Below are positions 3,001-45,900 of a DNA stretch of 64,000 bases, in pieces (position 1 is the stretch's first letter; every line of letters begins with the position of its first letter). The translations under genes and the position numbers were made by a program. This stretch comes from Ruditapes philippinarum (taxonomy: Eukaryota), in NCBI RefSeq assembly GCF_026571515.1, contig NW_026859122.1, positions 124,001 through 188,000 of the forward strand. The letters are read 5' to 3'. The notes under the pieces were generated by a model, which saw only the letters and a list, made by a program, of their open reading frames with translations, ran no database searches and was not told the origin of the DNA.

Positions 3001-5551
3001 TTGACGCCATTTTTTGAAGGACGCACGACAGACGCAGAGTGATGACAAAAGCTCACTGACACCCTTGAGCACTTTGTGCTCAGGTGAGCTAATAAAACAA
3101 TTCATCTATCAAAATTAATTTCTCAACATGCATTTTAAATGTAAAATTTTCTCATTAGGTGTTGACTCAATAATACCATCAAATTACCATTGTTTCAAAA
3201 GAACAAGCAAACAAGCACTTCTGATCTTAGAAATAAGCTAAGTTTTGCACTTATAATATTTTAACATCAAAGAAGGAACATACGTGTTACATTTCCTGGG
3301 CAGACTGTACCCCTCAAGACCCGGCTTGACAGCGATGTTGTTTACAACATTACGACAACTACGGCACTGGATAGACAGATATGTTGCCTTCGATCTGATG
3401 GCAGATGCAGCAATGACTATCCCAGGAATTTTAACCAGCTTTGCCATTTGCTCCGACTGAAAATAAGAAGCTAAATCTACAAACATTCTAATGATATCAT
3501 ACTTGATCCATATATCAAATTATGTCTATTATGTATCATATAGTACCTATTAACTGTTTCAAATCTGAAAACAAAATTAATTAATTTCTTTAAAAACAAA
3601 TCAGTATAACTTACTATCTTAAGTCCATCTAATTATCACCATAATATAGACAATAATTTATGTATTCCTACATAGATCTGATTGCACTAACCTTGAGTGC
3701 TCGTATATTACAGGCATTTTCTTTTGAAGTAAGCATTATTTGTATATCCTGAACATCCTCGTCTCCTTCTGGGCGGGGCTTCGTTATTTCATCTGCAATT
3801 TCCTTGGCTGCATCTTCAAACTAGACAAATAAAAGAACATTTTAATGTTGGGTTTAACGTGGCACCAACACAGTAGTGGTTGTATGGTTAATTTTTTGCT
3901 ATGAAGAGGCCTTGAGTAGAAACACTGCCATTTTGTAAGCTTCCTGTCATAAAAGAATTCAGTGCCTCTGGTTAGGGGTAAGTGGTTTGAAGTCAAAGAC
4001 ATTTACCACTCGGCAATGGACGTTCCTCACATGCAATAATTGTCATACCTTTATAAATAAGTATCAAGAAACTAAACAGGAATGATCTTGACAGCTTGGT
4101 CATAATATTGATTCTTAAATATCATCATTTCAATGATTTAAATGTTGAAATAAACACATAATAGGAGGCGACAAATTCATTTCTAAACATACAAGTCAAT
4201 TCATCTTCCAGCAATTTTTTTCTTTCAATTTTTGTCCTTCATTGTTTGAATTTTTTTATAAAAGCAAGATATGTTGTGTTAAGAGCAATTACTATCAATG
4301 CCCAATTATTTATAAATGAACATAGCGATGAAAAAAAATACTGCTTCCAGGAGAATGCCCCTTTTATTACAAAATTTTATGTATTAGAACGTATTGCCAC
4401 AATAATTAAAATTTTATGTCGATATATATATTTCATCTGATTTCTGTGACAGTCCCGGACATTATGGCATGTATGTAAAAGGTTAATGTGTAATGAAAGC
4501 AAAATTATACCAGAGGTAGATGCTCTGTGGGTAGTTTATACAACTTTTCAGCAAGAGTTTCATCAAAGCTGGCTACATCCTCGACATCTACTTCTAGAAA
4601 ATACTCTCCAAGATTATAATGGCGTTTTAGTTCATCTCTGAAATACAATTAAGTATATATTTTGTATGTTTTTTGTTTGTTTTGGGTTTCACGTCACATC
4701 AACACAGTATCGGTCATATCGCGGCATTTCATCTTTACTGGTGGAGGAAGACCTCAGATGCCCTTCCTTGCATTATTTCAGGCATGAACGGGCACCTGAG
4801 TAGAACCACCGACATTATGTGAGCTAGCTGGATAGCTTCCTCACATGAAAGAATCCAAAGTCCCTGTCGGGATTCGAACCCACAGCGGTGAGGGGCAAGT
4901 GGTTTGAAGTCAACGACCTTAACCACTCGGCCTATTTCGTATGTAAATAGGGATAACATACTTATATTCTTAATTTATAATTAAATTTTGCCAGATCAGT
5001 GATCAGTAACCGGAGAGGTTTGGGTTGAAGAGGCGAAATGTAGCTGGCCAGACTTTTTGTCTATATCTCTTTCTTTTGACCTATCCAATTTCTTCTAACT
5101 TTCTTGACCTAGCACCACCCGTCGCGTTAAAATCAAGTGTGATTTCGCCGACGTACGATGTAGTTTGTAAAAAATCACGGCGGGTAGTCGGTCACAAAGG
5201 GTATTCGATCAAAAAACTTTTTTGCCCTGAAATGCCTATGCCTTACATAGAAATTATACTAGGAAATTGCGGCCAAACCAGACCATTTAAGTGACATGTA
5301 CTTTATAAAAGTAACTTATGAACAGATGAATTGTGTCTATCATGCTCATTTTCTTTTCTTTCTTTCAAATCAGTATGCCAAAAATTATGTCACCTGTAAC
5401 GATATGAGAAGTTTCCTTCATGAAATTGTCGTATGAAGTCTTTAAATCTTTTCTTTACTTGTGTCCTGTTTATTTGATCTTCATTATTTTGGTCTTCTGA
5501 ACCAAAGTTATCGCTGAAAAATATTCCTGGGTCATCAAAGCCAGTGTCCAT
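1..5551 (-). CDS. MCM5: DNA replication licensing factor MCM5, 5' portion (exons 5394-5551, 4511-4637, 3692-3820, 3284-3456, 1-54; continues beyond the window start)
   Basis: Spliced translation with GT-AG junctions and consistent phases: [20 protein letters not shown]...[17 protein letters not shown]|[43 protein letters not shown]|[30 protein letters not shown]...IRALK|[34 protein letters not shown]...[13 protein letters not shown]|[17 protein letters not shown]. This matches the MCM5 N-terminal and zinc-finger region. Confidence 0.97.
226..3092 (+). mobile_element. Helentron-associated interspersed element (HINE-like) with internal ~140-bp tandem repeats, interrupted by nested insertions
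   Basis: 5' ACAAGAGGGCCATGATGGCCCT hairpin followed by GCTCACCTG; 3' hairpin TGAGCACTTTGTGCTCA followed by the inverted subterminal CAGGTGAGC; repeated CCCCAGGGCTTTTATTTGAACAAACTTG units. Confidence 0.7.
1197..2436. mobile_element. Non-autonomous DNA transposon with 13-bp TIR and 5-bp TSD (hAT5-like)
   Basis: TIR CAGGGTTGCCAGC...GCTGGCAACCCTG; TATTT duplicated at 1192-1196 and 2437-2441; subterminal TTCCCTGAC repeats; internal inverted repeat at ~1812-2055. Confidence 0.85.
3845..4025 (-). mobile_element. Degenerate, internally deleted copy of the same SINE
   Basis: Shares GGGGTAAGTGGTTTGAAGTCAA...ACCACTCGGC and GGGTTTAACGTGGCACCAACACAGTA with the 4671-4932 copy. Confidence 0.7.
4671..4932 (-). 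mobile_element. tRNA-derived SINE (V-SINE/RUDI-like), near full length
   Basis: Minus strand head GGCCGAGTGGTTAAGG (A box)...GGGTTCGAATCCCG (B box), body ending GAGGTCTTCCTCCACCAGTAAAG and an AAAC-type tail. Further copies occur in the window. Confidence 0.85.
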
Positions 5552-5589
5552 CTTTCTTTTTTGTTTGTTTGTTCACGTGGTGTACTAAC

Positions 5590-5612
5590 GGCGGGAAATC
5601 TTTCGCGGGAAG
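5590..5612. promoter_or_regulatory. Tandem E2F-type sites in the MCM5 promoter (probable bidirectional promoter)
   Basis: GGCGGGAAA at 5590-5598 (TTTCCCGCC on minus) and TTTCGCGGGAAG at 5601-5612, about 40-60 bp upstream of the MCM5 ATG, in a locally CpG-rich patch. MCM genes are established E2F targets. Confidence 0.75.
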
Positions 5613-6831: not shown

Positions 6832-7094
6832 TTAACATACATAACTGTGTGAAGGAATAATATGTAACCAATTGCAATTACACATAGGTACTCTTTATGT
6901 ATTTGATGTAAATATAATAAGAATGCCTTTAAAACAAATATAATTATTATATTCATATATAGGTTTTTATAAGAAATTTATTGGGGGAAAAATTAGCACT
7001 TCCATTTTACTTTGACACATTGTGAAAATCAACTGATAAAGTTTGACTCATAGAAATTCTACTGTATTTAGATATGTTATTTTTTAAAGGAGCC

Positions 7095-10000
7095 ATGGAG
7101 GGTGAAACAGCCATAGAAAGATCAATAAGAGAGTTTGTATATACAAAGATACAAGAACAGGTATTCCTAGATGTTTCCAAGAGCAACACAATCACAGTGA
7201 AGCATCGGTCAAAGCATGGATCAACTGCTTTAGCTATGTTTTGGTTGCGGGTATTAAGACATAAGAATAATTATCCGATGCCGAAATTTCCATACAAGCA
7301 ATTGTATGATAAGCATGGCAATGATAAGGTAAAACTTTCTTTGAAACTTTTAAGCCTTTATTTAAATTAGCTCTTTTGAATACAAAGTGTCCATCCACTT
7401 AGCTTAATATGGAAAGCATTGGATTAGTAATACAGGGGGTCGCTTGCTCAATTACAATTGCTCATAGCTGTTTTGTTTTAACTGTCATGATTCATGTGGA
7501 ATTAGTACTCAGTCACTTTTGACAGTCAACTTATGACAAAGAGATATGTTAAAATTGGCGTAAAACCCAGAGAAATTTGTTAACTTAGTTACTTAATATC
7601 ATCCCAAGGCAGATATGAACAAGATATTTTCTGGATATTTCCCAGAGCATATCTCCTATATGCATATCTATAATGCCCACATCTCTGTCAAAACCTTTTG
7701 TGACGGGCGTATCTTGCCAAAGTGTTGCCCTTGTTATGTTGTTTAGTAATATTAATACAAAAAAGTGATCGCGATCGCCAGTTTTGGGTTTACCAGTTGT
7801 TGTCAAGTAGTCCTGATACATGATGTTTTATACACTTATAATTAATGCCTACATGTTAAATTCATTTCTTTATTTGTTCTTCTTTCAGTCAGTTTCAGCC
7901 CTAATATGTACATGTATTGTCGTTTGTACTGTAACTATTATAAGTTAATGTTAAATGATTATATTTGCAGGTAATATTGAAAGTTGACAGTGTTACCCTT
8001 ACAACATTTATGAGCACAGGTACTTTGATGATTCAAGGACATTTTGTTCTGGAATGGTTTATAAACACATTTCCTAGTATACTGTCAGCATATGATGCTC
8101 CAATCAAAGATCCACAGCGTCTGAGTACATGTTATTCCCAGTATACTGAAAGTTGGAAACAGTTGATGGACGATGATACACTGAAGAAAGGTATGCTGAT
8201 TACAATTTTGATTACATTATAATTTGATATAATGCTGTCAGAAATATAACTTTTGTTTTAGTACCAGTTTATATATAATATGTAAGAAAGTGAAACTGTG
8301 TTCAAGTCCAGAGGTATCAGCAGCTGAGTAATTTATAACAGAGAGGAAGCTGTCCAGCTATGGACTACATATGTCTACTGGAATATAATTGTACCTTCCT
8401 GATCAAGTCCCATAACTCAAGCAGGGTTTTTGTCAAATTATTTCCCTTTTTGAGCTTTTTGAATTTCTGGTTAAGGGTCTGCAGGGAAGTTCTACATGAT
8501 ACTACTTAAGCTATTTAATAGAAATTTAACAAATGTTTCAGGATCATAACTGAAGGACACAGACCAAGATCTTTTATAAATAGCATGGCCTTTTCTGTCT
8601 TTTCTCTGAATTATCCCCCTTCCTTGGCTCATAAATAGTGAAATATAGGTAAAATGTTAAGTAAAGATATCTTTTAAAGAGCAGAAAGTTAAAAGGTTCC
8701 AAAAATTACCAGAATAAAGAATGGTGAGTTGATTTTTTTTAAAGCATCAGAAGAAAAAGAAGTACGAGAGAGAGAAGATAATGCTATTAAAGTCGCTGAT
8801 GATTTAGATACAGTTCTGGATACAGTTAACACAGAGGTGGCAAAGTTTGATATTGAAAATACTACAGTTACAGAGACAGGTATATTTAATACAATGTTTT
8901 ATTGCAATCTTACGTATTGTAAATTCTTTTTAGTAAAATGTGTTAAAAGAAAGATTTTATTTTAAAATGGTTGTTTGAATATAAGCGAACTTTAGCTACA
9001 ATGTATATTTTCCAAATTGTATGTACTTCAATATATTTGAAATTATTTGGAATTAGAAATATGTTCTTACAATAATAAGTTCAAGGTCATGTTTAAGGCA
9101 AACCTTGAGCTTAATTTAAAGTGTATAAAGCTAGTTCTCATGAAATATTATTTTAAAATTAATCATTAGTAAAATTATATTGTTCAGTAATCTTATGTTC
9201 CATTCTTGAAAGAGTTGTAACATAGAATGTCTCTGTAATTTAACATACATTTTATTGAAGTAAAACAGAATAAAATGTGGCAGAACAAAATATTTTTCTG
9301 CTATTTTAAAACGGGTTTTATCCATTTAGCAATGATTTTGCAATTTAAAGTGACATTATGCCTATCCAATGGTATATAGTGAGTGAACAGGTGAATATCA
9401 AAATAAGTTTTCATTTTGCCATAAATACTTTTAATTAACTTCCCATAAACAATAAATTATGCACTTACATAAGTAAAATTACTGTAAAATTAGAATTTAC
9501 CTATAACGCTCAGTTTATAAAAAGAGTGGGGCAGTCTTTTTATATTTTAGGCAGATTTATAATTTTATCCTGAACGTTTTCCAATATCAACTGTTGGTCA
9601 AACACCATTTTAACAGTCAATCTTTTGAAATATAAAGTCAATTCAGCTAAATTTGACTAGGAAAATATGAGCATAATGTCACTTTAAGATTAGAAAAAAT
9701 AAGGCAATTTACTACCATATCTATTTCATACAAACATCTTGGAAGTACTTTTTTTTAAATTGAAAGTTTTGCAGCAAATATAAAGCTTTAGACACTTTAA
9801 ATCTGCATGCTTCCAGGAAATAGAATTTCTGGCAATTTTATTTTTCCAGAATTTAAGTATTATTCAAAATGATTTTTTTATTACATATTGGAAAACGCTA
9901 TACTATTTATAAGTTCTAACTACATGTACATGTATATAGATAAAATAACATTTTCTGCTGGTTTAAATTACTACTTATGTTTTATTTATTTCCTGGTTCA

Positions 10001-11949
10001 TTGGGTGCTGTACTTTTCATTTTCTTTCTACTCTGTAATACCTTAAATTCTTTTTGAGCCTCAGACACTGATTTAACTTGTCCTTTAACATCTATGGCAT
10101 CAGGGTTACCATAATAAAAACTTGTTTAAATGTATCCCTTTTGCTGGCAATAAACACAAAAATGTTGTCAATATATATAGTTATTGTAATTCTATGGTAA
10201 CAGGAAAGGAAGGAAGGTGGTACCAAACAGTGTTACACTTTTACACAGAACTTTTGTATAAATGTAGATAAAAGAAAACCAGTTTGATTAGTTTTATATT
10301 TTAGACTGATTGTCAGATGATTTAATACAATTCCTGGGACACAGTCAAAAGTCTTTCCAAAACTTTTGTCCCATCTGAAAAATTCATTTTAGGATTTTCG
10401 TCTGTGAATGCTATTTTCATTTACTATGCTTACTTTGTCAACTAGTGAACATACAGAATGTATAAGAATATTGTTGTAAATTTACTTGTTGCTATAGAAA
10501 CATCTACATTGAGGGAGAGGTTGAAGATAGCAGAAGATTCCATGGCCGACCAGTTGGCAACTGAGCTTAAACTTATCTCTCTAGATGTAGTATGTAGTCC
10601 TTCTTTTTTGTTGTGTAAATTTATGTGGCTTTTTTTATCTTAAAAATGAATATTATATAGTATGTTTAATGTAACTGTAGATGTATGTTCGAAACTTTGT
10701 TTTAACATAGTTCTTTAACTGTAAGCTACAGTATAATATTGTCACCAAATGACTGAAGCATTTTAGAGGGTACATCAAACAACAAGAACTATAAGTCTGA
10801 CTCACCTTCCTTTTACCAATGATGTTGACATTATTATTTTACAGTATTATTCTAACATAACATCCATGTTGTTTCTGTTTATTGAAGAAGCATACAGCAC
10901 CAATTTAGTTCTTTCCCTTTCTTTAAAACTATTCACACTAACACAGAGCACTTTTTGAAGTTCTTTCCCTTTCTTTAAAATTATTCATACAAGTTTTTTT
11001 GTTTTGAAATAATTAATGTGCTTAGGGTGTGTATCATTGTTACATTGCTTAGAAAAAGAGAATATATGCTTGTGCACAAAAACTTTCATTGAGTGAATGA
11101 TACTTTTACATTGTATCTTGCAATAATCTACCCTTTCTTGAAGTTGGAGAGTAATAATAATAATAAAGCCTTTATTTAAAGAGGCAACATAGTAAGGCAC
11201 TTTTGATGTCAAGTTAATTGATGCTCAAAATAGGTTTCTGTATTGCATGATACAGTTCTGCTTGTAGCAGCGCTATTGAAATAGTCTTATAACAAAGTTA
11301 AAGTCTTTAAACAGTCTTTTTATTTCATTACCTTTTTTTCTAAACCAAAGATTTATGATATTATATAACATTTCTCTAATAAGACAGTTTATATTTACAG
11401 TGGTCAGGAGATACATTAACGGCACAGCTTGATAATCTACGCACCGGCAGTGTACGGGATGGTTCTACATTTATCTACACACTCTGGAAATCTGTACTAC
11501 ACCACTGGTTCAGTGATCCTGACCGTAAAGTTTACATTGTTACGCCATTTCTCGATTCCTCCCGACTTGTTGACGTCTGCAACATCATCCTTGAGCATCG
11601 TCTTGAGGCTAACCTTGACGCGTTTTATGTGCGTCAGAAATGTGACCATAATAGGGATATATTTGAAGTGAAGCAAAATGCATTAGAAAAGTATGACGTC
11701 AAGGACCAGGTTTTTATAGAATACAAAATATTCAACAATATTATATATCCACTGAAAAGGTTTCATGCAAAATTTATTGCTTGTATAAAAGGAAACGAAG
11801 CAGAAGTGCTGATCACGAGTGCCAACTTTCATGGCGACCATTTTGAATATAGCAACATGGACAGTGTACAGTTTCAGACGATGTCAGACGTAGAATTTAT
11901 CTCAAGGTTTCTGGCACCAATCAATGCTTCAGTATTAGAAAAGAAATAA
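7095..11949 (+). CDS. Uncharacterised 409-aa protein: N-terminal TBP-like domain, acidic helical linker, C-terminal single-HKD PLD-superfamily nuclease-like domain (exons 7095-7328, 7971-8190, 8745-8879, 10498-10589, 11401-11949)
   Basis: gccATGG start context and five exons with GT-AG junctions whose phases (0,1,1,0) join to 1230 nt with no stop. The last exon carries KVYIVTPFLD...RFHAKFIACIKGNEAEVLITSANFHGDHFEYSNMD (HxK + SxN + distal acidic residue). The exon 3 acceptor could alternatively be 8751 in the same frame. Confidence 0.85.
9349..9683. mobile_element. Kolobok-like MITE (TTAA TSD, AG termini)
   Basis: TTAA-AGTGACATTATGC ... GCATAATGTCACT-TTAA. Confidence 0.75.
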
Positions 11950-16767: not shown

Positions 16768-17861
16768 ATGGCAGAGAGTGGCAGTGAAGGATTTGAAACC
16801 CTGGATGGTATAGGTGGAGATATAGACGTTGTGAGTATTTCAAAGTACATTTTGATTGCGAGAGTGTAACAGTTGACTCCAGAGTTAGAATTTAAACTAA
16901 CTTGGTAGAGGTTGACTTTCATGTCAAATATCTTAGCTATAGCCTTTATTGGTTAAGCGATGGTATTTAAAATTTTTACAATATACATATTAGGAAAACC
17001 GATAATCCATAGGAGAAGGGTCAATTTACCCCAGTCCTATAATTTGAATAAACTTTGTAATGGTCCAATAGACAATGTTTCATGTCCAATACGTAAGCTT
17101 TGGCAGTTATAGTTCATAAAATATTAGCCAAAAAAGGAGTTTTATTCAAACAATGGTAAAATCAATATATTTATACATTGAGAGCATCGCAACTGCTTTT
17201 TGATTGGATATCTTTAAAGTTAAATAATATATGTATACTCGTATTTCATGTCATAAGCACATAAGTTATCATATACTAGTCTATATACATCCCAGTACGA
17301 TAAATTAACCTTTATTTTCAGTGGGATAAACGTACATTAAAAGAAAAGCTTGGAGACGTTTCTGATGGTGGGGTGTTTCGTGGAAAAGATTTTATCTACC
17401 CGCTCTGGAAGACGTTGCTTAATAAATGGTTGGCGTACAAAACCTCAAAAGTATACCTTGTAACACCCTTTCTTGACGAGCAACGCATGCAAGAGGTCTG
17501 CAGGATAGCTTTGTTGAATGAAGCAGACGATAGAATCGCAAGCTTTTATGTGAGAGAAAAGTGCAATTTCAGTAAATCAATCTCAGATCTACAAGAAACT
17601 GTTACAGGTGAAATAAAGTCAGACGACAAAAGCAAAAAGATGCAGACGCGACTTGAGTCCATATACGAAAAGATTGTGGACCCCGGGAAAACTTTCCATG
17701 CCAAGTTTATGTGTTGTGTCCGTGGAAGCAAAGCCGAAGTTTTCATAACGAGCGCAAATTTTCATGGTTCTCACTTCGATTGTAATAATTTGGATACCGT
17801 TCAGTATATTACAACTACAAAAAAGAATTTCGAAGAAAGATTTTTACAGCCCTTGACATGA
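16768..17861 (+). CDS. Stand-alone single-HKD PLD-superfamily nuclease-like protein, ~200 aa, tandem paralogue of the upstream gene (exons 16768-16830, 17322-17861)
   Basis: MAESGSEGFETLDGIGGDIDV|WDKRTLKEKLG...FIYPLWKTLLNKW...KVYLVTPFLD...FYVREKC...TFHAKFMCCVRGSKAEVFITSANFHGSHFDCNNLDTVQY...RFLQPLT*. Donor GTT/gtgagt and acceptor tttcag/TGG, with the same DV|W phase-0 intron as the paralogue. Additional upstream coding exons cannot be excluded. Confidence 0.85.
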
Positions 17862-25800: not shown

Positions 25801-28800
25801 TTGTTCAGAGGAGCACTATACTAGCAAATTACTGGAATTACTAGTATACTTTAAGCAAACAGTTGAGAATCCAAATAAATGCTAGATATTTGGTTTCTCT
25901 GTTGGCATCAGTAAAAGTCCATTAGTGTAATCTATGTATAAAATCAAGATCTACAGTTGTGTACCCATGTTTTTTTTTCTGCTGCACAAAAATGTATTTA
26001 TTTCAAATACATCAAGTGTGTACATGTGTATCTTTTAAAAATCTTTTAGCTAAAATGAAGGACAATACACACTAAACTGTACTTTATTTTGGTGATTGAA
26101 ATAAAATATACCATAATGATTGCTTTTGTGTGCAATACATGTATATATCAATATGCCATAATATGATTTTCAATTAGATAGTGAAAAAAAAAATCAGTGA
26201 AATACAAGTCATATCACACTGTTTGAATTTGAATGAGATATTAATTGTTGGTACATGTATATAATATAATTATATAATACATAATAGTATAAAGATATAG
26301 CGAACAAGAATACATAAAAGACAAACATTTTCAAGATATCATGGATTAAGTCATTTAGTGTAATATAGTGCACATTCACTGGATACAAACAAATGCTCTT
26401 CTGAAAAGATATTCTGTTTACATTGTAAAACAGCTCAAATGTAATTAAGAGTCATAGATAAGATCAGAAAAAGGAAAAGCGTTTTGGTCTTCAGGTTTCT
26501 TATAATAAAAAATAGTACTAGAACTCTGCAAGTCGGATGTGTCGCCTTGTGAACAATATAGTTTAGGAGAAATGGCCAGGACAAAAATGAAATATGAAAA
26601 TTAACAAAGGGCAATAACTCAAAAAATAAGAAGTGCAGAGCAGCAGTTTCTGTGCACTGCTCTTCTTATCAATAAAATCCATCATCCTATGAAGTTTCAA
26701 GTCTATAGCTTTTATAATTTATGAGAAATGGCCTGGACAAAAATAAAGTACGAAAATTTATAAGTTTGAAGTCAATCCGACTTATAATGACTGACTTATG
26801 CTCCAGAAAGCTTAAGGGGATGCCGACACCGACACAGACAAACGTAACCCCTACATATCGCCTTTTTCAAGGCGACACAATAAACATGATAACTATATAT
26901 ATGTACATTAATTACTTACTGAACTGAATATCTTAAACAAACATGTCTGTCTTTATTCCAGACAAACTATTCAGCATTTTTAGGGAAAATTTCAAAATAT
27001 CTAATGACTGAATAGCAAACAGTGCAGACCATGATCAGACTGCATGGATGTACCAGCTGATCTTGGTCTGCACTGTAGTCACATGATATATTCACTTGCA
27101 GCAAGCAGGCTTATAAGCTGTATTAACTCTTAAAAATATTTTTTCTTTAAATCATTGCTGTTATAATAGTCATCACACAGTTTTTAATATAATCATAAAA
27201 TTGTCCAAAGCAATGTACATGCCCATCTTATAATAAAAAAAAAAAATGAAGAAGTCAGCTTTAAGATAGCTTTTTATCTTTATATTTTGATTTAGCTTAT
27301 AATGTCATGGTTGAAAAGTAGATTACATTTGTAATTGAAAATAAAATCAGTAGACAAAAACTTTTATAATCAGTAATGTTGTACCAGAATAAATTCTGTG
27401 TTACTGACTAAACATCATAAATGTTAGTTTTGTTGTCATGGTTAACTGATGGAGGAAGATCTCCAGTATAATTCTGAGCATTATTTTAGGCATGAAAGGC
27501 ACCGGAGTAGAATCCTGGATGTTCCTCATAAGATTAAGAAAGAATCTTAAGTCCCTGTTGGGATTTGAGCCCACAGTAGTGAAGGGTAAGTGGTTTGAAG
27601 TGACCTTAACCACTAAGCCACAAAGGCCCCCCTCCCCTTTAACAACGTCTCAAGGTTTTTTTTATGGAATTATTATAGGAATATATCTGCTAACACCATC
27701 TTTCGATGGCACCCTATCTCAAACCTCCTCTAATATCAAGATAGATCCAGGTTTCTTTCTATTAGAACAGATAGAGAGTGCCACACAGAAAAAGCTATTT
27801 ATGTCTTTAATTCTTTCAAAATTCTTGTCCTTACAATGTATTAGACATACCAGTATAGATTATGTATAGATAAATGAAAACACACTATTAAAAGAGAAAT
27901 ACATTGTAAGTCTAACTCAATATTTTATGTTTTTTACCTTGTTCAGATATTTTATACTGCAAAATATAAAGTTATAAAATATACAATATACATTGTTAGA
28001 TCAAATGAAACAAAAGTGTATTATCTGTGACTGGTATCTTACTGTGATATAAAACATTTGTATCTTTTTTTTGGTTTTATGCCATACCAACACAGTCAAA
28101 GTAAGTCATAATGTAAGACAAATTTTACTTGTGGAGATATACCTTAAATGCGTGTGCATTATTTCAGCCTAGAACAGGCACATGAGTATAATCATAAACC
28201 TTACATTAAATAGCTGAAAATCTGCGTCACATAAGACAATACATAATTCCTGACATGATTCATATAACAGTGTAGCAATACCACGTCCACTCCTATACAA
28301 ATAACTACCAAGGTTATACAAATTGTTTGATTAAACAGCTTATATACTGAAGGAGATACAATATTCTGCTGCAAGCTTATAATTTCCCCCGTAGACTGGT
28401 GCATATACCAAAGAAAATATACCAAAGAAATTGGTACAGAAATAAGATACTAATGGCTATTTTCTTTTTTTCAAATTGAGCATAAGTTGTCTTGGAAATG
28501 ATGCCAAAAATGGCATCAAGGTCACATTGTATTGCTACACTGTATGCTACACTGTGGGGCCTGTGATTCAAGTCAATGGTAACCAATTAACCAGAAACCA
28601 CAGTTATTGTGTTTTGTTGAAATATTTAATCAAAGAAAACAAACCTATAAAAAGCACAACTGTTGATCTTCCCAATCCGAGAACAATGAGGCTAGCTGTC
28701 TTTGAAACAAGTCCTACTACTAGTATCATAGTATCTCTTACTCCAAATTTCCTCTTCAGAAGTGGAAGGAATGTTAGTACCGCTATACCTCGTAGGAATG

Positions 28801-30272
28801 ATTCTAAACCGTCGTACAGTCCTAGAGTTGTCTGTGACCAGTTAAAAGGTCGGTTACGAGTATAAATCAGTAAAATGTCAATCTCACCTACATGAGAGAA
28901 GGGTATAAAAATTGATGTGATAAAAATGTGTAATGTAGCTCCATGATGCCTGCAAAATCATAAAACAAACTGTATAAACAAGAATACACTAAAGGTCATG
29001 GACCTTTCAAGAATCTTCCATTTGTCTGCGTATTTCATAGTGCATTAGCAGTTAGAGCAAAAGTGTAAAACAACACACACACAAAAAAACATTTTTAGCA
29101 CATGTGTTCTTGAATTACAAATCCCCAAATTCTTTAATATTTTTCAAATTATTATCTGGTTAAGCATTATTAAGTCCTTTAAATAATGGATATTATATAA
29201 ACTTAGTAATGTAGAGAAATGATTCTTTAACACTGCATTTATGTTAAAGTTTTATATACCTACTGATACTACATTGTACATGATAATAACTTTTATTAAA
29301 TAATTAAGTTAATGTTTAATGTTTAAGTATATAATTTAACATGTAATAATAGAGAAAACCCGCCAAAATAATTTGTTATTTTAAATTTAAAATATATTGT
29401 TTAATGTTATACATACCTATTGACACCAACATCAGGATAAATATGATAAAAATTGCTAATGCCAGGTTTAAAAAGTTCTCGTTCCTGCGGCTCTGATACA
29501 CGCACATGAATGCATCTTTTATGGTATCAAGAAACAATGATCTGCAACTACTTTTTCTGTCACTGTTAGCATCCAGAGTCTGTTCAGAGGGAATGCTGTC
29601 TACCCAAACAATTGTATATATTAAAGCAAGCATCATTAATCCTGCTAGAAAACTAAACACAAATACATAACTTGTCTTATCGAGGATCACACCTGATATT
29701 GCTGTGCCAACAGTTGCTGACAGGAATATCATACCTTCTAGTATTCCTATCTTTATGGTACGGTAAGACGGAGATGACACATAGGCGATGTAACTATACA
29801 TTGACATTAATGCTGCTATAAAACCTCCAAGAAGTCCATTTAGAAACTGTCCAAATAGTAAATACACAAGAGGTGCATCCATATAAACGGAATTTATCAT
29901 GTTACTAACTGAAACTAAAAATGAACCTACTAAGGGGCAGATAACTGGTATTTTTCTATTAACTGTGTCTCCCCAGGGACCTAGGAACAATACTACACTA
30001 AACAGTGAGGGCAATCCCATAGCAAGGTTATTATATAACAGCCATGTTGATGTTTCCTTCTGTACAACATCCTCTTCTTCTTTATATGTTATATTGCCTA
30101 GTTGTGAACATATTGTTGAATTGTAATGTTCTTTACAAACTTTGTCATATACTAGAGCCTGGAATGTCAAGTTAGATAAGAATACTGTAAACATGTACAG
30201 AAACATCACTGGTTCGACTGTAATTGACTTCATGTCAAACTTGTGTGACCGTATCTTAATAATGTAAGCCAT
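22808..30272 (-). CDS. SLC46-family (proton-coupled folate transporter / SLC46A3-like) MFS transporter, 482 aa (exons 29417-30272, 28645-28887, 24018-24101, 23452-23608, 22808-22916)
   Basis: accATGG start and family motifs ITVEPVMFLY, VYDKVC, EEDVVQKETSTW, LGPWGDTVNRK, GEIDILLIYTRNRPFNWS, IRSMTSGMVSSNEQAKLFS, FNTVYTATIDFYPGFCFL. The exons sum to 1449 nt in frame. The exact orthologue cannot be assigned. Confidence 0.92.
23150..23378 (-). mobile_element. tRNA-derived SINE copy (V-SINE/RUDI-like)
   Basis: CTTTACTGGTGGAGGAAGACCTCAGATGCCC...CTAGCTGGATAGCTTCCTCACATG...GATTCGAACCCACAGC. Confidence 0.8.
23632..23866. mobile_element. Near-perfect palindromic (fold-back) MITE
   Basis: GAGCCACGTCACGACAAAACCAACATAATGGGTTTGCGACCAGCATGGA... 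is mirrored by ...TCCATGCTGGTCGCAAACCCATTATGTTGGTTTTGTCATGACGCGGCTC; arms are about 100 bp. Confidence 0.9.
24688..25698 (+). mobile_element. HINE-like element carrying about 5 tandem ~162-bp units
   Basis: ACAAGAGCTGTCACAGGAGACAGC 5' hairpin; TCTAAGTT recurs at 25145, 25307 and 25469 (period 162); 3' hairpin TATACTTCGTATA then GCTAAAAA. A shorter relative lies at ~41314-41713. Confidence 0.75.
27446..27630 (-). mobile_element. tRNA-derived SINE copy, degenerate
   Basis: GATGGAGGAAGATCTCCAG...GGGATTTGAGCCCACAGTAGTGAAGGGTAAGTGGTTTGAAGTGACCTTAACCACT. Confidence 0.7.
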
Positions 30273-31446
30273 GGTTGAGAAATGGTTCTTTTTTTTTTTA
30301 CTTGTGGTTAAACGTTTCAAATTCTTCAACTTTTTAACTTCTCTCAGAATCTCTGGGACCTGGAAAAAAAGTTAACATACAATAATACTGAAGGCTTGGC
30401 AAGAGTTTTAACTCATATGACATGAAGAAGGAGTTATAGCTGTTTGGCATCAAGCCCTTGATACATCTTATTACAGCTAAGATCATGGCCTATCTGCTGC
30501 ATACTTACTTTCAGGTCAACAGTTCTTTCTTTTTTCATGATCTTGTATTATTAATGAACATATAGTGTAAAATGGATGAAACAAATACCCTGGCTTGCCT
30601 TTTATTTGAGAATTATTATGTTGTTTACAAATGATTACAGACTGTCCTAATAATAACTATACATAAACTTTTGTTGAGGACCACAAGGTTATGCTTAAAA
30701 CAAAATATCTAATTTCTGGGCCATGTTGGTTTTTTCCTCAAAAAAAAAATAATTTTTTTCCTTTACTAGTCTATGTAACAAATGTGATCCCAAGTCTGGC
30801 AATTTTTATCCAAGGGGCATGATTGAAATAAACTTGTGTTGTCCAGAATTAAATGCTTTTAAGTTTAGTCTAAATCTGAAGGAATTGGGGATAACAGTAC
30901 ACAATAGACAATAAGCATTATTAAGCTCTGTTAATTGTAAAATGTTTGAAATTTTCTTATTTTCAATGTTAGAAGTCCCTTCAATTTGTATAAATTTGTA
31001 AGATGTTAACAAGTAAGATTGGTAAGAATTTGCCATTGACTGAAACATACATGTATTTCTATTTCAAGCACTTAATCTGGCCCTAAAAGTTACCAACCAA
31101 ATTGTTCTGAAAAAATCTAATAGAGGACCAACAAATGATATGGCAAGTCTGGTGATGATGCATTTATTAGCTCAGAAATTAATTCTAATTTTAGCTCTAG
31201 GTTCTCATTCAAGTGTTCAACCATCTTATTAGCAAACTTAAAAGATCATTTAAAGATGCTCACACTTAAACATGGGATGAATAATCCTATTACAAAGTAG
31301 ATGGTTATTAAAGATATTTCTAGCTTTAGTTGTAATTTGAATAAACTTGACAGAGGACCATATAACAAGTTGCCTCACACATTTAGTCTCAAAATCACTT
31401 ACCCTACCTTCATTCAACTTTAATCACAATGATATTAAAATATTCT

Positions 31447-36988: not shown

Positions 36989-39900
36989 CTAAAATTTCAC
37001 TTGTATAACATCCCCTGGTTCTATAGAATAATATGAGAGATCTCTCTGATCATTGTCCATTTCTATTTCTTCATTTTTCATCTGAAATATACATACAAAA
37101 ATAATCAAACATAAATCATTTAATTATTATTATGTTATGGACAGTTGAGTTCAAACTAAAGTTCCGACCTTTGTGCACATGGTGTGTGCAGTTTTAGTGC
37201 ACAAGACCAAATGGCAGTTCAGGGTGACACTTCATTTGTTTGATGGATCATTGCAAAACAACTGACCAGCGTAAAGTCATATATTAATTAACACATCATG
37301 TTTCTATTTCTTCTCCAAAACATTGTAAACATTGTTGTCAATTATATTACCTAATCTGACTAATGTCAACAAATGTAAAAAAATTATTGTTAAAAATAAC
37401 TTAATTTGTAGATGATGCTTTAAAGTTATGAAATATAACTCTTGAAAGAAAGTTATTATATTCAAAGATATTGCAATATTTACCCTGCTACTAAGATATA
37501 CTGGTAAAGATATTGCAATATTTACCCTGTTACTAAGATATACCGGTAAAGATATTGCAATATTTACCCTGTTACTAAGATATACTGGTAAAGATATTGC
37601 AATATTTACCCTGTTACTAAGATATACCGGTAAAGATATTGCAATATTTACCCTGTTACTAAGATATACCGGTAAAGATATTGCAATATTTACCCTGTTA
37701 CTAAGATATACCGGTAAAGATATTGCAATATTTACCCTGTTACTAAGATATACTGGTAAAGATATTGCAATATTTACCCTTCTACTAAGATATACTGGTA
37801 AAGATATTGCAATATTTACCCTGTTACTAAGATATACCGGTAAAGATATTGCAATATTTACCCTGTTACTAAGATATACTGGTAAAGATATTTCAATATT
37901 TACCCTTCTTCTAAAATATACTGGTAAAATATTGTGATATTTACCCTTCTTCTAAGATATACTGGTAAAGATATTGCAATATTTACCCTGTTACTAAGAT
38001 ATACTGGTAAAGATATTGCAATATTTACCCTTCTACTAAGATATACTGGTAAAGATATTGCAATATTTACCCTGTTACTAAGATATACCGGTAAAGATAT
38101 TGCATATTTACCCTGTTACTAAGATATACTGGTAAAGATATTGCAATATTTACCCTGTTACTAAGATATACCGGTAAAGATATTTGCAATATTTACCCTG
38201 TTACTAAGATACACCAGTAAAGATATTGCAATATTTACCCTTCTACTAAGATATACTGGTAAAGATATTGCAATATTTACCCTGTTACTAAGATATACCG
38301 GTAAAGATATTGCAATATTTACCCTGTTACTAAGATATACTGGTAAAGATATTGCAATATTTACCCTTCTACTAAGATAAACTGGTAAAGATATTGCAAT
38401 ATTTACCCTGTTACTAAGATATACCGGTAAAGATATTGCAATATTTATCCTGTTACTAAGATATACTGTAAAGATATTGCAATATTTACCCTGTTACTAA
38501 GATATACTGGTAAAGCTATTGCAATATTTACCCTGTTTCTAAGATATACTGGTAAATATATTGCAATATTTACCCTTCTACTAAGATATACTAGTAAAGA
38601 TATTTACCTTTTTGCTTAAATAAGAAAGATTAATTGTATCTCTATCCAATTTAAACAGCCTAGTCACCAGTGCCTTCAGTCTGGATATGTTTATTGTACC
38701 TAGAATAAAAATGTCATTGACAAGTTGATCATATGAAATAGCAAGTACATGAGCATGAAACCAATTACAGTTACACTCTGACACTAATGATAGCTATAAA
38801 TTAGTATTATACAGTGTAACCTTTGCAGAGTGGCCCTCTGTAGAGCAATAACCTCTCTACAACAATAAAATCAAATTGTTCCCGAACTAAGATGTGGCAT
38901 TTAATTAATAAAACCTTTCTAGGGCAACATCTTTCAGCAACCAAAATGTTTGCTCCCCAAACGGTGTTGCTTTGTAGAATATCGTACTATAGCCTAAATA
39001 TAGTGATTCTTTCACACTTCATTTCCCAAATATAAGTTTAGTTTAAAACATACTATTTTTAGCATGATTTGTGATGAAAACTTGAAGTTTATTTGAACAA
39101 CTTTAGAGTCTATCTTCTGGAACTAATATTAGTGTGTCATACAAGGAAATTTGGTCGTGAACCCAGCTTGAACATTTGATCCCTAGGTTGTGAAGCAGAC
39201 ACCTTTACCACCCCTACCACACAATTTTTGGTACCTGAGAAACCTACAAGGGCCCTACAAGCCACCAAAGATATAAACTTGATGAAAATATAATTCTTAA
39301 AATGATGAACCACAAATAGTTTACTAAAGCAAAAAAAAAAAAATTCTGATAAAGAATAAATAATCATTTTTTATTGCTTCTTGGTGAACAAATTCACAGT
39401 GAATGTAAATGTTCAACATCAATTTAGTCAGTTGATTATGTAAAATGTCAAATAACTGTGCATGAAAATCATCAATATTAAAAAAAATGTTTGACATAAG
39501 ATGATACCACACTCTCTAGGCATTTGTTTTAAAATGTGAACAAATTTACATACCAGGCAATTTTTTCTCCATCATTTCTACATCAGGCATGGATGGAACC
39601 TCAAATTTCACAGCTTAAGACTAGAGTTAAAGAATATTTTCTATAAAATTCTTCATAGAATTAAAATAGCTGGCAAATGAAGTACATGTACATGTATATT
39701 TTATTGTCAGAATTATATATGTTTTTTATACAGATTTATAATGACTACAAATCATTCATTTATCAAGAACTTTACAGCCCAGACTTTCTTTAAGCAATTA
39801 TATTATCTAAAGTAAAATAAGTTAACTTAAATTATGGCATGTAAATTCTATATAATTTCTTTACATGTAGTGTGTGGCAATAATGTCAAGGTCATAGCAA

Positions 39901-42900
39901 TATTGTCAAGGTCATATGACAACTTTCCAACTTGTTAATGATAAGACCAAAAATAAAATATTTCATTTTTAGTGGGCACTTTAGTAATAACAACCATCTC
40001 TTTTTAGCTAGATTGATAGCTTCTTTACAAGAAAATACATACAAACATCTCAAACAGAATTTAAAAAGGTGAGAAAAGCAGTAATTTAAAAGTTAGTGAA
40101 TCAATCACTCAACAATGGAGCACTTTGGAGTAACTTGCTTTATGGTTAAGAAAGGAAATTAAAATCCTCAACAAATGGATACAGACAGACGGACAATGCA
40201 ATACCATAATACATGCGGAAAAATCTTCAGGACATGTAAAAAGTAAGTTGAATTTCTCAACAAAAGGATACTGATTAGACCACTTTTAAGTGTTGTTGGT
40301 TTCTTTTCCATCTCAGAGTCCTCAGGTGCTCCCCATTCTGTAAACATATCACATTATATCTATGATTGTCATATTACTCTGTTACACAAAATTTAGTCTA
40401 CGAACAATCTCCAAATACTTAATAAAATGTATATTATTATTTCTAATTTATCATAACTCAATTTTGCATACTTTATCATAACTATAAGTTCATCAATTTT
40501 CTTACATTTTTTGTCATTTCCTTTTGTTTGTTTGTTGGATTGATTGGGTTTTACGTCACAACAACACAGTATAGGTCATATGGCGACATTCCAGCTTTAC
40601 TGGTGGATGAACACCTCAGGTGCCCTCCCGTGCATTATTTCAGGCACGAACGGGCACCCAAGTAGAACCACAGACCTTCCTAAAGCTAGCTGGATAGCTT
40701 CTCACAGGAAAGAATCCAAAGTCCCTGTCAGGATTGGAACCCACAGTGGTGAGGGGCAAGTGATTTGAAGTCAACGACCTTAACCACTCGACAATGGACA
40801 CCCCTTTTCCATTTGTAATGAATTAATATTTATTATCTATTATTTATTTATCTATAATTTTTATATTACTCTATGCTGCAAAAGATTTAGGCAATGAACA
40901 ATCAATTCACAAAATATTATGATTTCTAATTTATTATAACTCATTTTTCCGTAATAAGTCCTTCATGTTTTGTGTGTTTATTGTCATATATAATTTCATG
41001 CAAGATATGCTTGTGTCTTTAATTCTACTGAAAGTTGCTTTTTTATCAATGATATATAAATTCTCATAAAAGATTGTTCAACTTAGAATAAAATATGCCC
41101 ACTTTTCAGAATTTCTTGGAAGCGTGGATGGTTTTTAAGGAATTCTTCTGATGGTTTACTCTTGTTTACATCCTGACTGCCTCCTGATTTCACCCAATCC
41201 GGACCAAATCGCTTCAAGTAATCAATTTCTGCATCTCTTCTTTCCTCAGGTGTTACCTAAATGCAATCCAAAGCAAATAAAGGATATTAAACTCTGAAAC
41301 AAAGACAAAGCAAACAAGAGCTGTCAGTAAGACAGTATGCTCAACTATTCTAAATGCTTGATAATAAAACAAGAGTATGGATGATGTAAGAATTAACAAA
41401 AAGGTAGATTTTTATTTAAAAAAAAAAAAAAACATGACATAGTTATAAGTCAATGATATTGACCAAAGAAATTTGTAAATTCATAAAGGGCTATATTTTG
41501 CCAGAATTATCGATCTTTGAAAGTGACCTTCAATTATCATTTCAATACCTCAATTGTATGAGAAGTTACAAATATCTTTAGTGGTTGTTGTTATATGATG
41601 TTGTACAAAAAAACATACATAACTTTTTTATATTTTTATTAAACAAAGTGCTACAGAGACGCCAATGCCAATGAGCAGAATAGCCCCACTATTCATTGAA
41701 TAGTGGGGCTTAAATTGGTATGATGTACATTGTAATTTATATACAGCAGCTCAAAAAACTCATCAGAAATATTCAACCTCTAAAATGTTGGAAGATAATT
41801 TAACCCAAAGTTGGCACTATAATGTTCATACTTCAATCTATTCATCTACACATTGGAATCAAGTTAATGGGCCATCTAACAGTAATCAAATAGAATAACA
41901 GATTTTATTCCATTTCATAGAATGAGGTGCCATGACCCATTATTTCTCCTGCAATCACCTACAATATATGACTGCAGATAGGTTGATAAACCTTTGTATG
42001 AAAATAGATGGCAATAAAGGCATGTGCATTTAAATCTTTCCCTAAAGTCCTTGTCAATTTGTTATAATAGGTGGCACCTGGATAACTCAAAACATACACA
42101 AGCAATGGTGATGGCTCATAATATGTTACTAAGTGCAATATGAAAACTATCTGGGTTTTTTGTGACAAAAAGATGGGTTCAAACCCCGTCAGGGGCAAGT
42201 CCTTGTTTCCTTGAGCAAGAAACTTTACCCTCATTGCTCAGTACTGGTTGGTTCCAGGAACAGATTCGAAAGTGTGTCTATAAGCTTATAGCTTCCTACA
42301 CAATCGAACTAAAATAATTTCTGTATTAACCAAAAATATGGGTGCTTTGGCCACAAGGGACTGGAAAATAATTACACTTTAGTCTGATGAGATGCATTCA
42401 TTGTTTCATGAAACATTGTTTTTAACTTTTATAAGTCACAGAGGTCTTAATGATACAAAATTAGCAGACTGCAATTAAGGTCACATATAAAATACTAAAC
42501 AGCAAATTTTAAATAAATGTGACTAATTCTTTGAGAGAAGACCTCTGTTGATATTGTATAAAGGACAACTTATGAGATACAAATTTCATAGATTACCACT
42601 AAACTTAACTGTGGATTTAGAGAACACTACATACAGGGCCACATCTCACATATAGTTGTTTCAGACATAACATTTAGAGTGCAATATGCTTTGTGACTGT
42701 CACTGCAGACAGAAAATCCCTACAAAATAAAACAGCATAAAAAAATCAGAAAATTTTCAGTGTTCACTTTCATCATGGAAGGCTTAGACTAATGCTATGA
42801 TTATCAGATACCATACAACAAAAGATTGAATTCCCTGAAAGTGTTGTAAAATTCTAAGAAAAGTTATCCCTATACTATTAATAACATGAATAAACAAGAT

Positions 42901-45900
42901 GATTACCTTAGTTCTGTTAACAACTTTGACATCTTTTAATTTAGCTATGAGCAGCTGTCTAACAGTCTGAGGTTTACTAGAATCCATTATAGGGTTCAGT
43001 TTCAACCGCAACTCCTCTAAGTGAGCTAGTTTGTTCAATTCATTAATACTGTCCCACTGAAAAAATACAAAGAGAAATATGTATATTAACAATGGTAAAA
43101 CATGATTTATTACAATAAATGATCTACATGGTTTCAAAAAAACTTACAGCTCAGAACTAAGATAATTCTAAAAGCCGCATGATCTACCTTCTTCAAAAAT
43201 CTTTTGTCACATGACCATGACAGGTGCTGGCATTCTTAATTCCTGCAAGATCAATACAACTTGTTCTACAACAGAAACATTCTAATTATTCATTATTTTA
43301 TAAAGCTGCTTGCATATAAACACAAGTTGTTAAAACCTCAGATAACTGCATCAGGGAATCAATTTTTTATCTTTATGCTTATGGGTGTTATTTGAATTAA
43401 AATTTGTGCCAAAATTTTATTTAAATGTACATGTATGTTCTTGTCATTAACATCATTGTTCGTAAAAGAACAAATAAGGACAGATTCCTTTTCTATATTT
43501 TAATAATTCTTTCAAAATAATAGAGAAATACTCTAAACTTATAATATCCTGAAAGCAAATGAATAAAAAACAAAAATATTTTGTTAAATCTAAAAAAAAC
43601 AAAAACAAAAAAAGCCTGTCAATTAAAGTGTATAAAGCTACATCTCTCTTGCCTGCAAATTTACCAGTATTTTCTGTTTGATCTATGAAAGAAATATATA
43701 AGAATATTTCCTCGATGGCTAAATGGTTAAAAAAACTACTTAAAAGAGCTTCATAATATTTTGTTCTCGAACATTGTTTTATGTTTATTCACAGTTTTCA
43801 TGTGTGCTGAATAACAGAAACATGCTATCTTGCAAATCTTTCTAGGATCAATAATTAGATTATGGAAACAACAAATTCATTTTATAAAAAATATTTCATT
43901 GGATATAGTTTTATACCCTTTACTTAATGTATCCAACCAATTTTTTAAGACAAATTATTATCATATAGTCCCTTTAAATGTAGAAAACATGGGATAAAGG
44001 ATAACATGCTTACCTCACTTATACTGTTCTGATTGAGGGTCAAAGTGTTAAGCTCCTTGAACAAGTCTGTAGTTGTAGTATCGTTGCTAGGGAACTGTAT
44101 AGTTTGTATACCATTGTCACTTCCTATTAATGTCTTTAACCTGAAAGGTCAAATTTAGTACAAGGTATATCCAGATTTCAATTTTATGCTTGCATGGATA
44201 AGCCACAGTTAAACATTAATCTTATTTGTTTTTTGTTGTTTTTTTGTTGTTTTTTGTTGGGTTTCAAGTTACAGCAACACAGCAAAGGTGTTTCTTTCAA
44301 CTAAACTAGTGCAGAAGACCCCAACTTTAAATGCTATATAATGCATCAGCAGGTACCTGAATAGAACCGCTAACATTCAGCCTATGAAGTCATATACAGG
44401 CAAGGAGATTTCCAAATAATGCCCGGATTCTATGTTATCTTAACAAACTCAAGGTCTTAGGCCTTGTACTTAAAATATGTATTTGTACTTACTGTGACTA
44501 GAAAAAATCACTGTTGCATTAATATATGTACATGTATATACAAGTACAACAAAACTAATTAATACAATGTAGTAAGTTCTAATGATTTAAAAATGTTGGC
44601 TTAATAAACAAAACAGTTGTCCTTACCTAGGTAAGTGTCCAAGTTTTAAAAACTCTGACCAGTCAGAAATTTTATTGGATTCTAAATTAACAAGTGTTGT
44701 ATTTTGTATTTTTCCTTCCACACTGGAGAGTTTCTCTATTTTGTTAAAACAGGCATGTATTTGTTCTAGATTTGGAAACATCTCACAACATTGTAATATC
44801 TGAAAATAAAAAATTAAAATCTCGGTCACACAATTTAAGAGGGCAATGCTACACTCTCATAACAAAATGAATGTAATTTAATAGTGACAACAGTAAATCT
44901 AGTTATGCTTGTTGTCCACCACTTATGTTGCCAATAACATGTATAACTACAGGGTTGCACAGGTGTAGAATCCAGAAAAAAACTCACTAGGAAACTTTCT
45001 ACAAGGAACTTAATACGGAACCCCCTGCACATAAGTAACTGAGGGAATGTGAAAGTGATGCTTAACTCATCAGACCAAACAAACAAATTCTTATGATGCC
45101 ATCTTGAGAAGACTTGAGTATAAATTATGAAATTATTCTTAGTTAAGAAATAAATGTGTACAAATGTACCTGCTCCCATGTATATCCTGTTCTGTTAAGG
45201 AACAGCACTTTAATGTGTGAAAAACTGGACAGCAATGCCTTCCGATCACCTGGTATCTCTAAATTGTTCTCACTACAAAATATAACACTAAAATTTAATA
45301 TAACTTTATTGACATGATTATTTTTTTACATGCGACTGATCTTTGCAAATGTTACACTATATACAGTGCATGAAACATGACCATACAAACTATGATAAAA
45401 TCTTTGAGCATATTACAACACTTTTTGAAAATCACATCCAGATGAAATAGCCAAATAGGTACTCTTGCCATAATGAACTGGGGAAACAACTTGTAAAAGT
45501 ACCAAGGTACCAAAATGTGCCAAGGTCATGAGGCACTGATCTTTTTTTATTATATAAAATCAAGAACTACAACCATTAAATATGTTTAATCTATATAAGC
45601 ATACCTAACATTTAATGAGTTCAGTTTTTTCAGCTGTCTTGTAATTGAAGCAACTTGTTCCCAGGAAGGTAATAGATTCTGTGACAGGTCCAAGATTTCT
45701 ATGCTGGGAACCAGTACAGAAAGATCATGTGACTCTAATGTTCCATAAACAGTCATCCCTCGTATTGCTACTTCCTTTAATGCATCTAGTTTACTGAAGA
45801 AACATAATCACATTTACATAAGATTTTGAAATCTTGCAAAACTGAAACAAAAATGTCTAATAAAATACAGAAAATAAGAATCCCTAAAGAAAGCCCAACA

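What the first reader, a model, noticed from the sequence alone, without database searches (positions are those of the whole stretch)
7095..8190. Putative TBP-like (RNase HIII-N / RnlA-like) domain fused N-terminally to the HKD nuclease
Seen: exons 1-2 encode ~150 aa containing KVILKVDSVTLTTFMSTGTLMIQGHFVLEWFINTFPSIL, followed by an acidic, probably helical linker (exons 3-4) and then the HKD domain. Known: a strand-turn-strand 'hThx(Y/F)xxTGxhxhQG' followed by a helix typifies the TBP-like fold at the N-terminus of RNase HIII, where it binds RNA:DNA hybrids, and related bacterial toxin/defence N-terminal domains. I also recall a similar motif in ORF1-like proteins of invertebrate LINEs. Inference: a sensor-linker-nuclease architecture that might target RNA:DNA hybrids (R-loops or retroelement intermediates), or a domesticated retroelement domain recruited onto a nuclease. 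I do not recognise this fusion from any characterised protein.
Basis: inference. Interest (0 to 1): 0.78.

Follow-up and report, generated by a model that had tools for sequence, protein, structure and literature searches.

The report
Spiralian TBP-like/PLD nuclease fusion gene
A clam gene with relatives from molluscs to flatworms joins a small domain, likely a diverged cousin of the nucleic-acid-binding lobe of bacterial RNase H3 and RnlA, to a phospholipase-D-type domain that is predicted to be a working nuclease in this clam but lacks its catalytic histidine in most relatives.

The parts
7095..7328 (+). Coding exon 1 (residues 1-78): extra N-terminal helix and strand, first strand and helix of the TBP-lobe-like domain, and the family's most conserved motif (W50, H56, N59, P61, Y67). 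An AG at 7088-7089 suggests an upstream untranslated exon (inference).
7971..8190 (+). Coding exon 2 (residues 79-151): three strands with the T-G-x-L-x-I-Q-G hairpin, closing helix, start of the long linker helix
8745..8879 (+). Coding exon 3 (residues 152-196): acidic helical linker, 64% identical to Mercenaria
10498..10589 (+). Coding exon 4 (residues 197-227): second linker helix
11401..11949 (+). Coding exon 5 (residues 228-409): single PLD-superfamily domain with H349, K351, S367, N369, D381; no Asp at the HxK(x4)D position
16768..16830 (+). Tandem paralogue (gene B), first coding exon, 21 aa, no TBP-like domain
17322..17861 (+). Gene B last exon: stand-alone PLD domain, H-x-K and S-x-N intact, 43% identical to exon 5; the 200-aa product equals Ruditapes philippinarum LOC132755341

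Best explanation
This is a conserved spiralian gene whose product likely uses a diverged TBP-lobe-like N-domain to grip a double-stranded nucleic acid and, through a helical spacer, brings a likely homodimeric PLD-type phosphodiesterase to cut it; the catalytic H-x-K pair is intact in this clam and missing in most relatives. Shown: gene structure consistent with a same-length homologue, the fusion across six spiralian groups, the PLD fold, the intact H-K-S-N set here and its loss in 15 of 24 relatives. Inferred: (1) TBP-lobe ancestry of the N-domain; (2) nucleic-acid binding by its exposed sheet; (3) homodimer formation, because single-motif PLD nucleases (Nuc, Zucchini, BfiI) build one active site from two chains (established knowledge, recalled); (4) cleavage through a phosphohistidine intermediate (as stated for PLD enzymes in bioRxiv 10.1101/2025.07.10.664194); (5) a role against transposon or viral nucleic acid, by analogy with RnlA/TOTE, ZacB and Zucchini. 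Where the His is gone, the protein would bind without cutting or tune an active paralogue; this genome has an active solo paralogue (gene B) and a dead fused paralogue (gene C).
Confidence: 0.45

Rival explanations
1. The family is mainly a pseudo-PLD scaffold, working like FAM83 or MITD1: the PLD domain binds a partner or membrane, the N-domain binds protein, and the intact His here is a relic or serves a minor activity.
Confidence: 0.3
2. It is a lipid-directed or small-molecule phosphodiesterase, with the N-domain a helix-grip/KA1-like membrane- or ligand-binding module rather than a nucleic-acid sensor.
Confidence: 0.15
3. The N-domain was captured from the ORF1 of a CR1/L2-type LINE and fused to a PLD gene in an early spiralian (an origin story, compatible with any function above).
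For: This genome holds a LINE family (45 matches) whose 709-aa ORF1 begins with an RnlA_toxin-like domain (E 0.0066), then coiled coil and GDSL-like domain, followed by endonuclease and reverse-transcriptase frames; its profile matches the N-domain at score 23.3 over 54 columns against 13.9 in 40 shuffles.
Against: Probability only 16%, below the RnlA match; no match between the LINE profile and gene C's N-domain (0.2%) or RnlA (0.2-0.3%); exon 2 is single-copy and does not retrieve the LINEs. Only one LINE family of one genome was tested.
Confidence: 0.15
4. The fusion is an annotation artefact: exons 1-2 and the PLD exon belong to different genes.
For: No exon joint from this species among the listed joints; the Ruditapes protein for this gene was not returned; gene B shows that the PLD exon can stand alone.
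Against: Ungapped 340/409 match to Mercenaria; the same fusion in named proteins of 16 genera and on 8 short Logan contigs.
Confidence: 0.02

Closest known systems
RNase H3 (HIII) N-domain, DUF3378
   Same: Small N-terminal alpha/beta lobe on a linker ahead of a nuclease domain; same strand-helix order; hairpin pattern aromatic-x-x-T-G-T-x-x-x-Q-G in the clam protein; 3vn5 aligned over 68 residues, 19% identity.
RnlA/LsoA (RNase LS) N-terminal repeated domain; TOTE TBP domain
   Same: Best sequence-level lead (hhalign 82%/45%, Atlas 0.88); TBP-like lobe in front of a nuclease effector (PMC3710099, PMC7221094 passages).
   Different: One lobe, not two; effector is PLD, not HEPN; animal, intron-containing, no antitoxin neighbour; below Pfam cut-off.
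Single-motif PLD nucleases: Nuc/NucT, BfiI, SauUSI, NgoAVII-R, Azaca ZacB, Zucchini/PLD6
   Different: No Asp in HxK(x4)D; 10-12% identity; no membrane anchor or helicase; N-terminal TBP-like lobe; His lost in most relatives.
FAM83 DUF1669 and MITD1 pseudo-PLD domains
   Different: 9-13% identity; PLD domain is C-terminal to a TBP-like lobe; His and Lys intact here.
CR1/L2-type LINE ORF1 with N-terminal RnlA-like domain (this genome, L011)
   Same: Similar strand-turn-strand-QG-helix end followed by a helical region.
   Different: Multi-copy, intronless, esterase-like C-domain and ORF2; only 16% profile probability.

Membership tests
TBP-like lobe (RNase H3-N / RnlA NRD / TBP) | Strand-helix-four strands-helix lobe topology | tested here: met
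   AF2 N-domain model pLDDT 90.6, E32-37 H44-54 E67-71 E77-83 E86-91 E97-100 H104-120; aligned over 33-117 to 3vn5 2-69. Canonical order recalled.
TBP-like lobe (RNase H3-N / RnlA NRD / TBP) | Structural match standing above unrelated folds | tested here: inconclusive
TBP-like lobe (RNase H3-N / RnlA NRD / TBP) | Profile-level sequence homology | tested here: inconclusive
   hhalign 81.8% and 45% above 40 and 60 shuffles but on 34 and 20 columns; positive control failed; Atlas 0.88, a lead.
Pfam RnlA_toxin PF15935 / DUF3378 PF11858 | Score over the curated cut-off (27 bits) | tested here: not met
   Best 14.9 and 13.5 bits, in 1 of 43 members.
RNase H3 N-domain | Hybrid-reading residues (Tyr43, Ser45, Ser47, Gly52; Glu27, His28) | tested here: inconclusive
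   By spacing only: aromatic 21/43, S/T 34/43, S/T 26/43, Gly 41/43, all four 15/43; Glu27/His28 not mapped; the Ta sequence was not aligned.
RNase H3 / RnlA as whole proteins | RNase H or HEPN catalytic domain | tested here: not met
   C-domain is a PLD fold.
PLD superfamily, single-motif nucleases | PLD fold | tested here: met
PLD superfamily, single-motif nucleases | Catalytic H-x-K with downstream S-x-N | tested here: met
   H349, K351, S367, N369 in the window gene; H-x-K in 9 of 24 relatives only.
PLD superfamily, single-motif nucleases | Asp of HxK(x4)D | tested here: not met
   Ile356.
PLD superfamily, single-motif nucleases | Homodimer with shared active site | not tested
PLD superfamily, single-motif nucleases | Nuclease activity | not testable with these tools
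   Needs an assay.
FAM83/MITD1 pseudo-PLD | Loss of the catalytic His | tested here: not met
   His intact in the window gene; lost in 15 of 24 relatives and in gene C.
FAM83/MITD1 pseudo-PLD | CK1-binding motif or MIT domain (recalled features) | not tested
   No call addressed it; no such Pfam hit.
LINE ORF1 | Multi-copy, intronless ORF ahead of an endonuclease/RT ORF2 | tested here: not met
   Five coding exons, exon 2 single-copy; no RT frame among window ORFs of 110 aa or more.

The most novel reading that the evidence does not exclude
Spiralians carry an animal counterpart of bacterial TBP-lobe conflict nucleases: a sensor that reads RNA:DNA hybrids (R-loops, LINE priming intermediates) and a Zucchini-like dimeric nuclease that cuts them, tuned by an active solo paralogue and a dead fused paralogue, and sharing its sensor fold with the ORF1 of the LINEs it would police.
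Probability: 0.15. Interest if true: 0.8.

Novelty: new variant of a known kind. Interest (0 to 1): 0.5.

Why it matters
Both parts belong to known folds, but the pairing was not found in the eight literature searches made here, and every named relative is annotated as uncharacterised or hypothetical. It adds an animal PLD family with no Pfam hit beside PLD6/Zucchini, FAM83 and MITD1, old enough to span molluscs, annelids, nemerteans, brachiopods and flatworms, with catalytic loss in many lineages. If the lobe reads RNA:DNA hybrids, it would be a first animal use of the RNase H3/RnlA sensing module and a third route to hybrid surveillance; clam (His intact) versus mussel or snail (His lost) proteins give a natural active/dead pair for one assay.

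Full report
Gene structure. The window is AT-rich animal DNA. Five exons with GT/AG ends, 7095-7328, 7971-8190, 8745-8879, 10498-10589 and 11401-11949, give an open frame of 409 residues. It is 340 of 409 identical, with no gap, to Mercenaria mercenaria LOC123524539 (409 aa); identity is 84-90% in exons 1, 2 and 5 and 64-65% in the linker exons. A tandem paralogue (gene B; 16768-16830 plus 17322-17861) is letter-identical to Ruditapes philippinarum LOC132755341, 200 aa, which points to the Manila clam as the species. Splicing in this species was not observed: four raw RNA runs covered the exon bins at about 0-4x, and none of the 15 joints listed (45 hidden) joined exons. Eight full-length relatives known only from Logan lie on contigs of 1249-3771 bp, five with under 350 spare bases, while the introns here total 3625 bp; I infer they are spliced transcripts.

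Range. A search with the last exon among proteins of 320-2000 aa gave 11 hits of 231 candidates; the N-domain of the Mercenaria protein gave 9 of 72; a profile of the N-domain against 1.84 billion representatives gave 77 hits. All 27 N-domain hits of 280 aa or more also match the C-domain profile, 16 of them found without using the C-domain; shorter hits are mostly fragments or single exons and were not resolved. Names were seen for bivalves (Mercenaria, Mya, Mactra, Dreissena, Sinanodonta, Potamilus, Pecten, Mytilus), gastropods (Haliotis, Patella, Biomphalaria, Babylonia), Tubulanus, Owenia, Lingula and Macrostomum, all uncharacterised or hypothetical; I looked up 20 proteins by cluster, and most fragments are unnamed, so absence outside Spiralia is not shown. 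The linker runs from 40 to 106 residues. The genome holds three PLD exons of this family: this gene, the solo gene B, and gene C on contig C8068, whose first exon matches the N-domain profile (hmmsearch E 4.7e-8; hhalign 93%) and whose PLD domain has no H-x-K.

Does it read hybrids? In T. ammonificans RNase H3 the N-domain sheet uses Glu27, His28, Arg32, Tyr43, Ser45, Ser47 and the Gly52 amide (PMC4132731, passages read). By spacing from the last Gly, with a turn one residue longer as in RnlA, the clam has F91, T94, T96, G101. Across 43 members these hold in 21, 34, 26 and 41, all four in 15. The near-invariant residues are elsewhere: W50 43/43, H56 40/43, N59 41/42, P61 42/43, Y67 42/43, W107 42/43. 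The hairpin pattern is compatible with duplex binding but is not the family's fixed feature, and TBP lobes bind dsDNA, hybrids or act in RNases (PMC7221094, passages read), so hybrid specificity stays a guess.

LINE link. PF15935 searched in this genome found, under cut-off, a 709-aa frame that is the ORF1 of a LINE: RnlA_toxin-like start (E 0.0066), helical middle, GDSL-like domain (E 0.0061), then endonuclease and reverse-transcriptase frames (labels CR1/L2, APE, RT recalled); 45 matches of 58 candidates. Its profile (18 sequences) matches the N-domain at 16%, score 23.3, over shuffles at 13.9, but not gene C or RnlA.

Mechanism. Most likely (0.45): lobe binds a duplex nucleic acid, helical linker spaces it, two PLD domains dimerise and cut through a phosphohistidine; dead copies bind or regulate. 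Rivals: pseudo-PLD scaffold like FAM83/MITD1 (0.3), lipid or small-molecule phosphodiesterase (0.15). Dimer formation could not be tested.

Literature. Eight searches listed no paper on this fusion or family. I read passages only of PMC3710099 (TBP-like domain fused to RNase LS HEPN), PMC7221094, PMC12458937 (TOTE mention), PMC4132731 and bioRxiv 10.1101/2025.07.10.664194; the others only as listings. Aravind, Iyer and Burroughs 2022 (PMID 35609893), which defines TOTE, is not held and, like the unread supplements of PMC3710099 and PMC7221094, could mention animal TBP-like fusions.

Verdict. Real, conserved and apparently undescribed architecture of two known kinds of domain; TBP-like call likely but weakly scored; function open between nuclease and pseudo-enzyme. 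New variant of a known kind, interest 0.5.

Noticed in passing
window 16768-16830 and 17322-17861 (+): Tandem paralogue with a stand-alone, catalytically intact PLD domain (200 aa); relatives in Mercenaria and a Logan contig; same intron position just before the domain.
   Followed up: yes
L003 507-905 and 1450-2004 (G000:C8068): Third paralogue, 317 aa in two exons: divergent N-domain plus PLD domain lacking H-x-K.
   Followed up: partly
L011 2595-7690 (G000:C8864): LINE family whose ORF1 starts with an RnlA/TBP-like domain before a helical region and a GDSL-like domain; 45 matches in the genome. An RnlA-like domain in LINE ORF1 may deserve its own study.
   Followed up: partly
window 5390-5572 (-), further exons near 3290-3460 and 3690-3820 (-): Head-to-head neighbour that reads like MCM5 (label recalled, no Pfam hit for the first exon); its start lies about 1.5 kb from this gene's ATG, so a shared promoter near 5600 is possible.
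   Followed up: no
window 28607-28957 and 29379-30371 (-): Exons of a multi-pass transporter resembling SLC46/PCFT-type MFS proteins (label recalled).
   Followed up: no
window 37307-38493: Tandem array with a unit of about 42 bases that is open in several frames.
   Followed up: no
window 42787-43143 (-): Leucine-rich-repeat exon resembling tubulin cofactor E-like proteins (label recalled).
   Followed up: no
ESM Atlas: The PLD exon's nearest clusters are unannotated stand-alone 160-208 aa phage proteins (0.94-0.95); no sequence-level link was found in phage records or viral contigs.
   Followed up: partly
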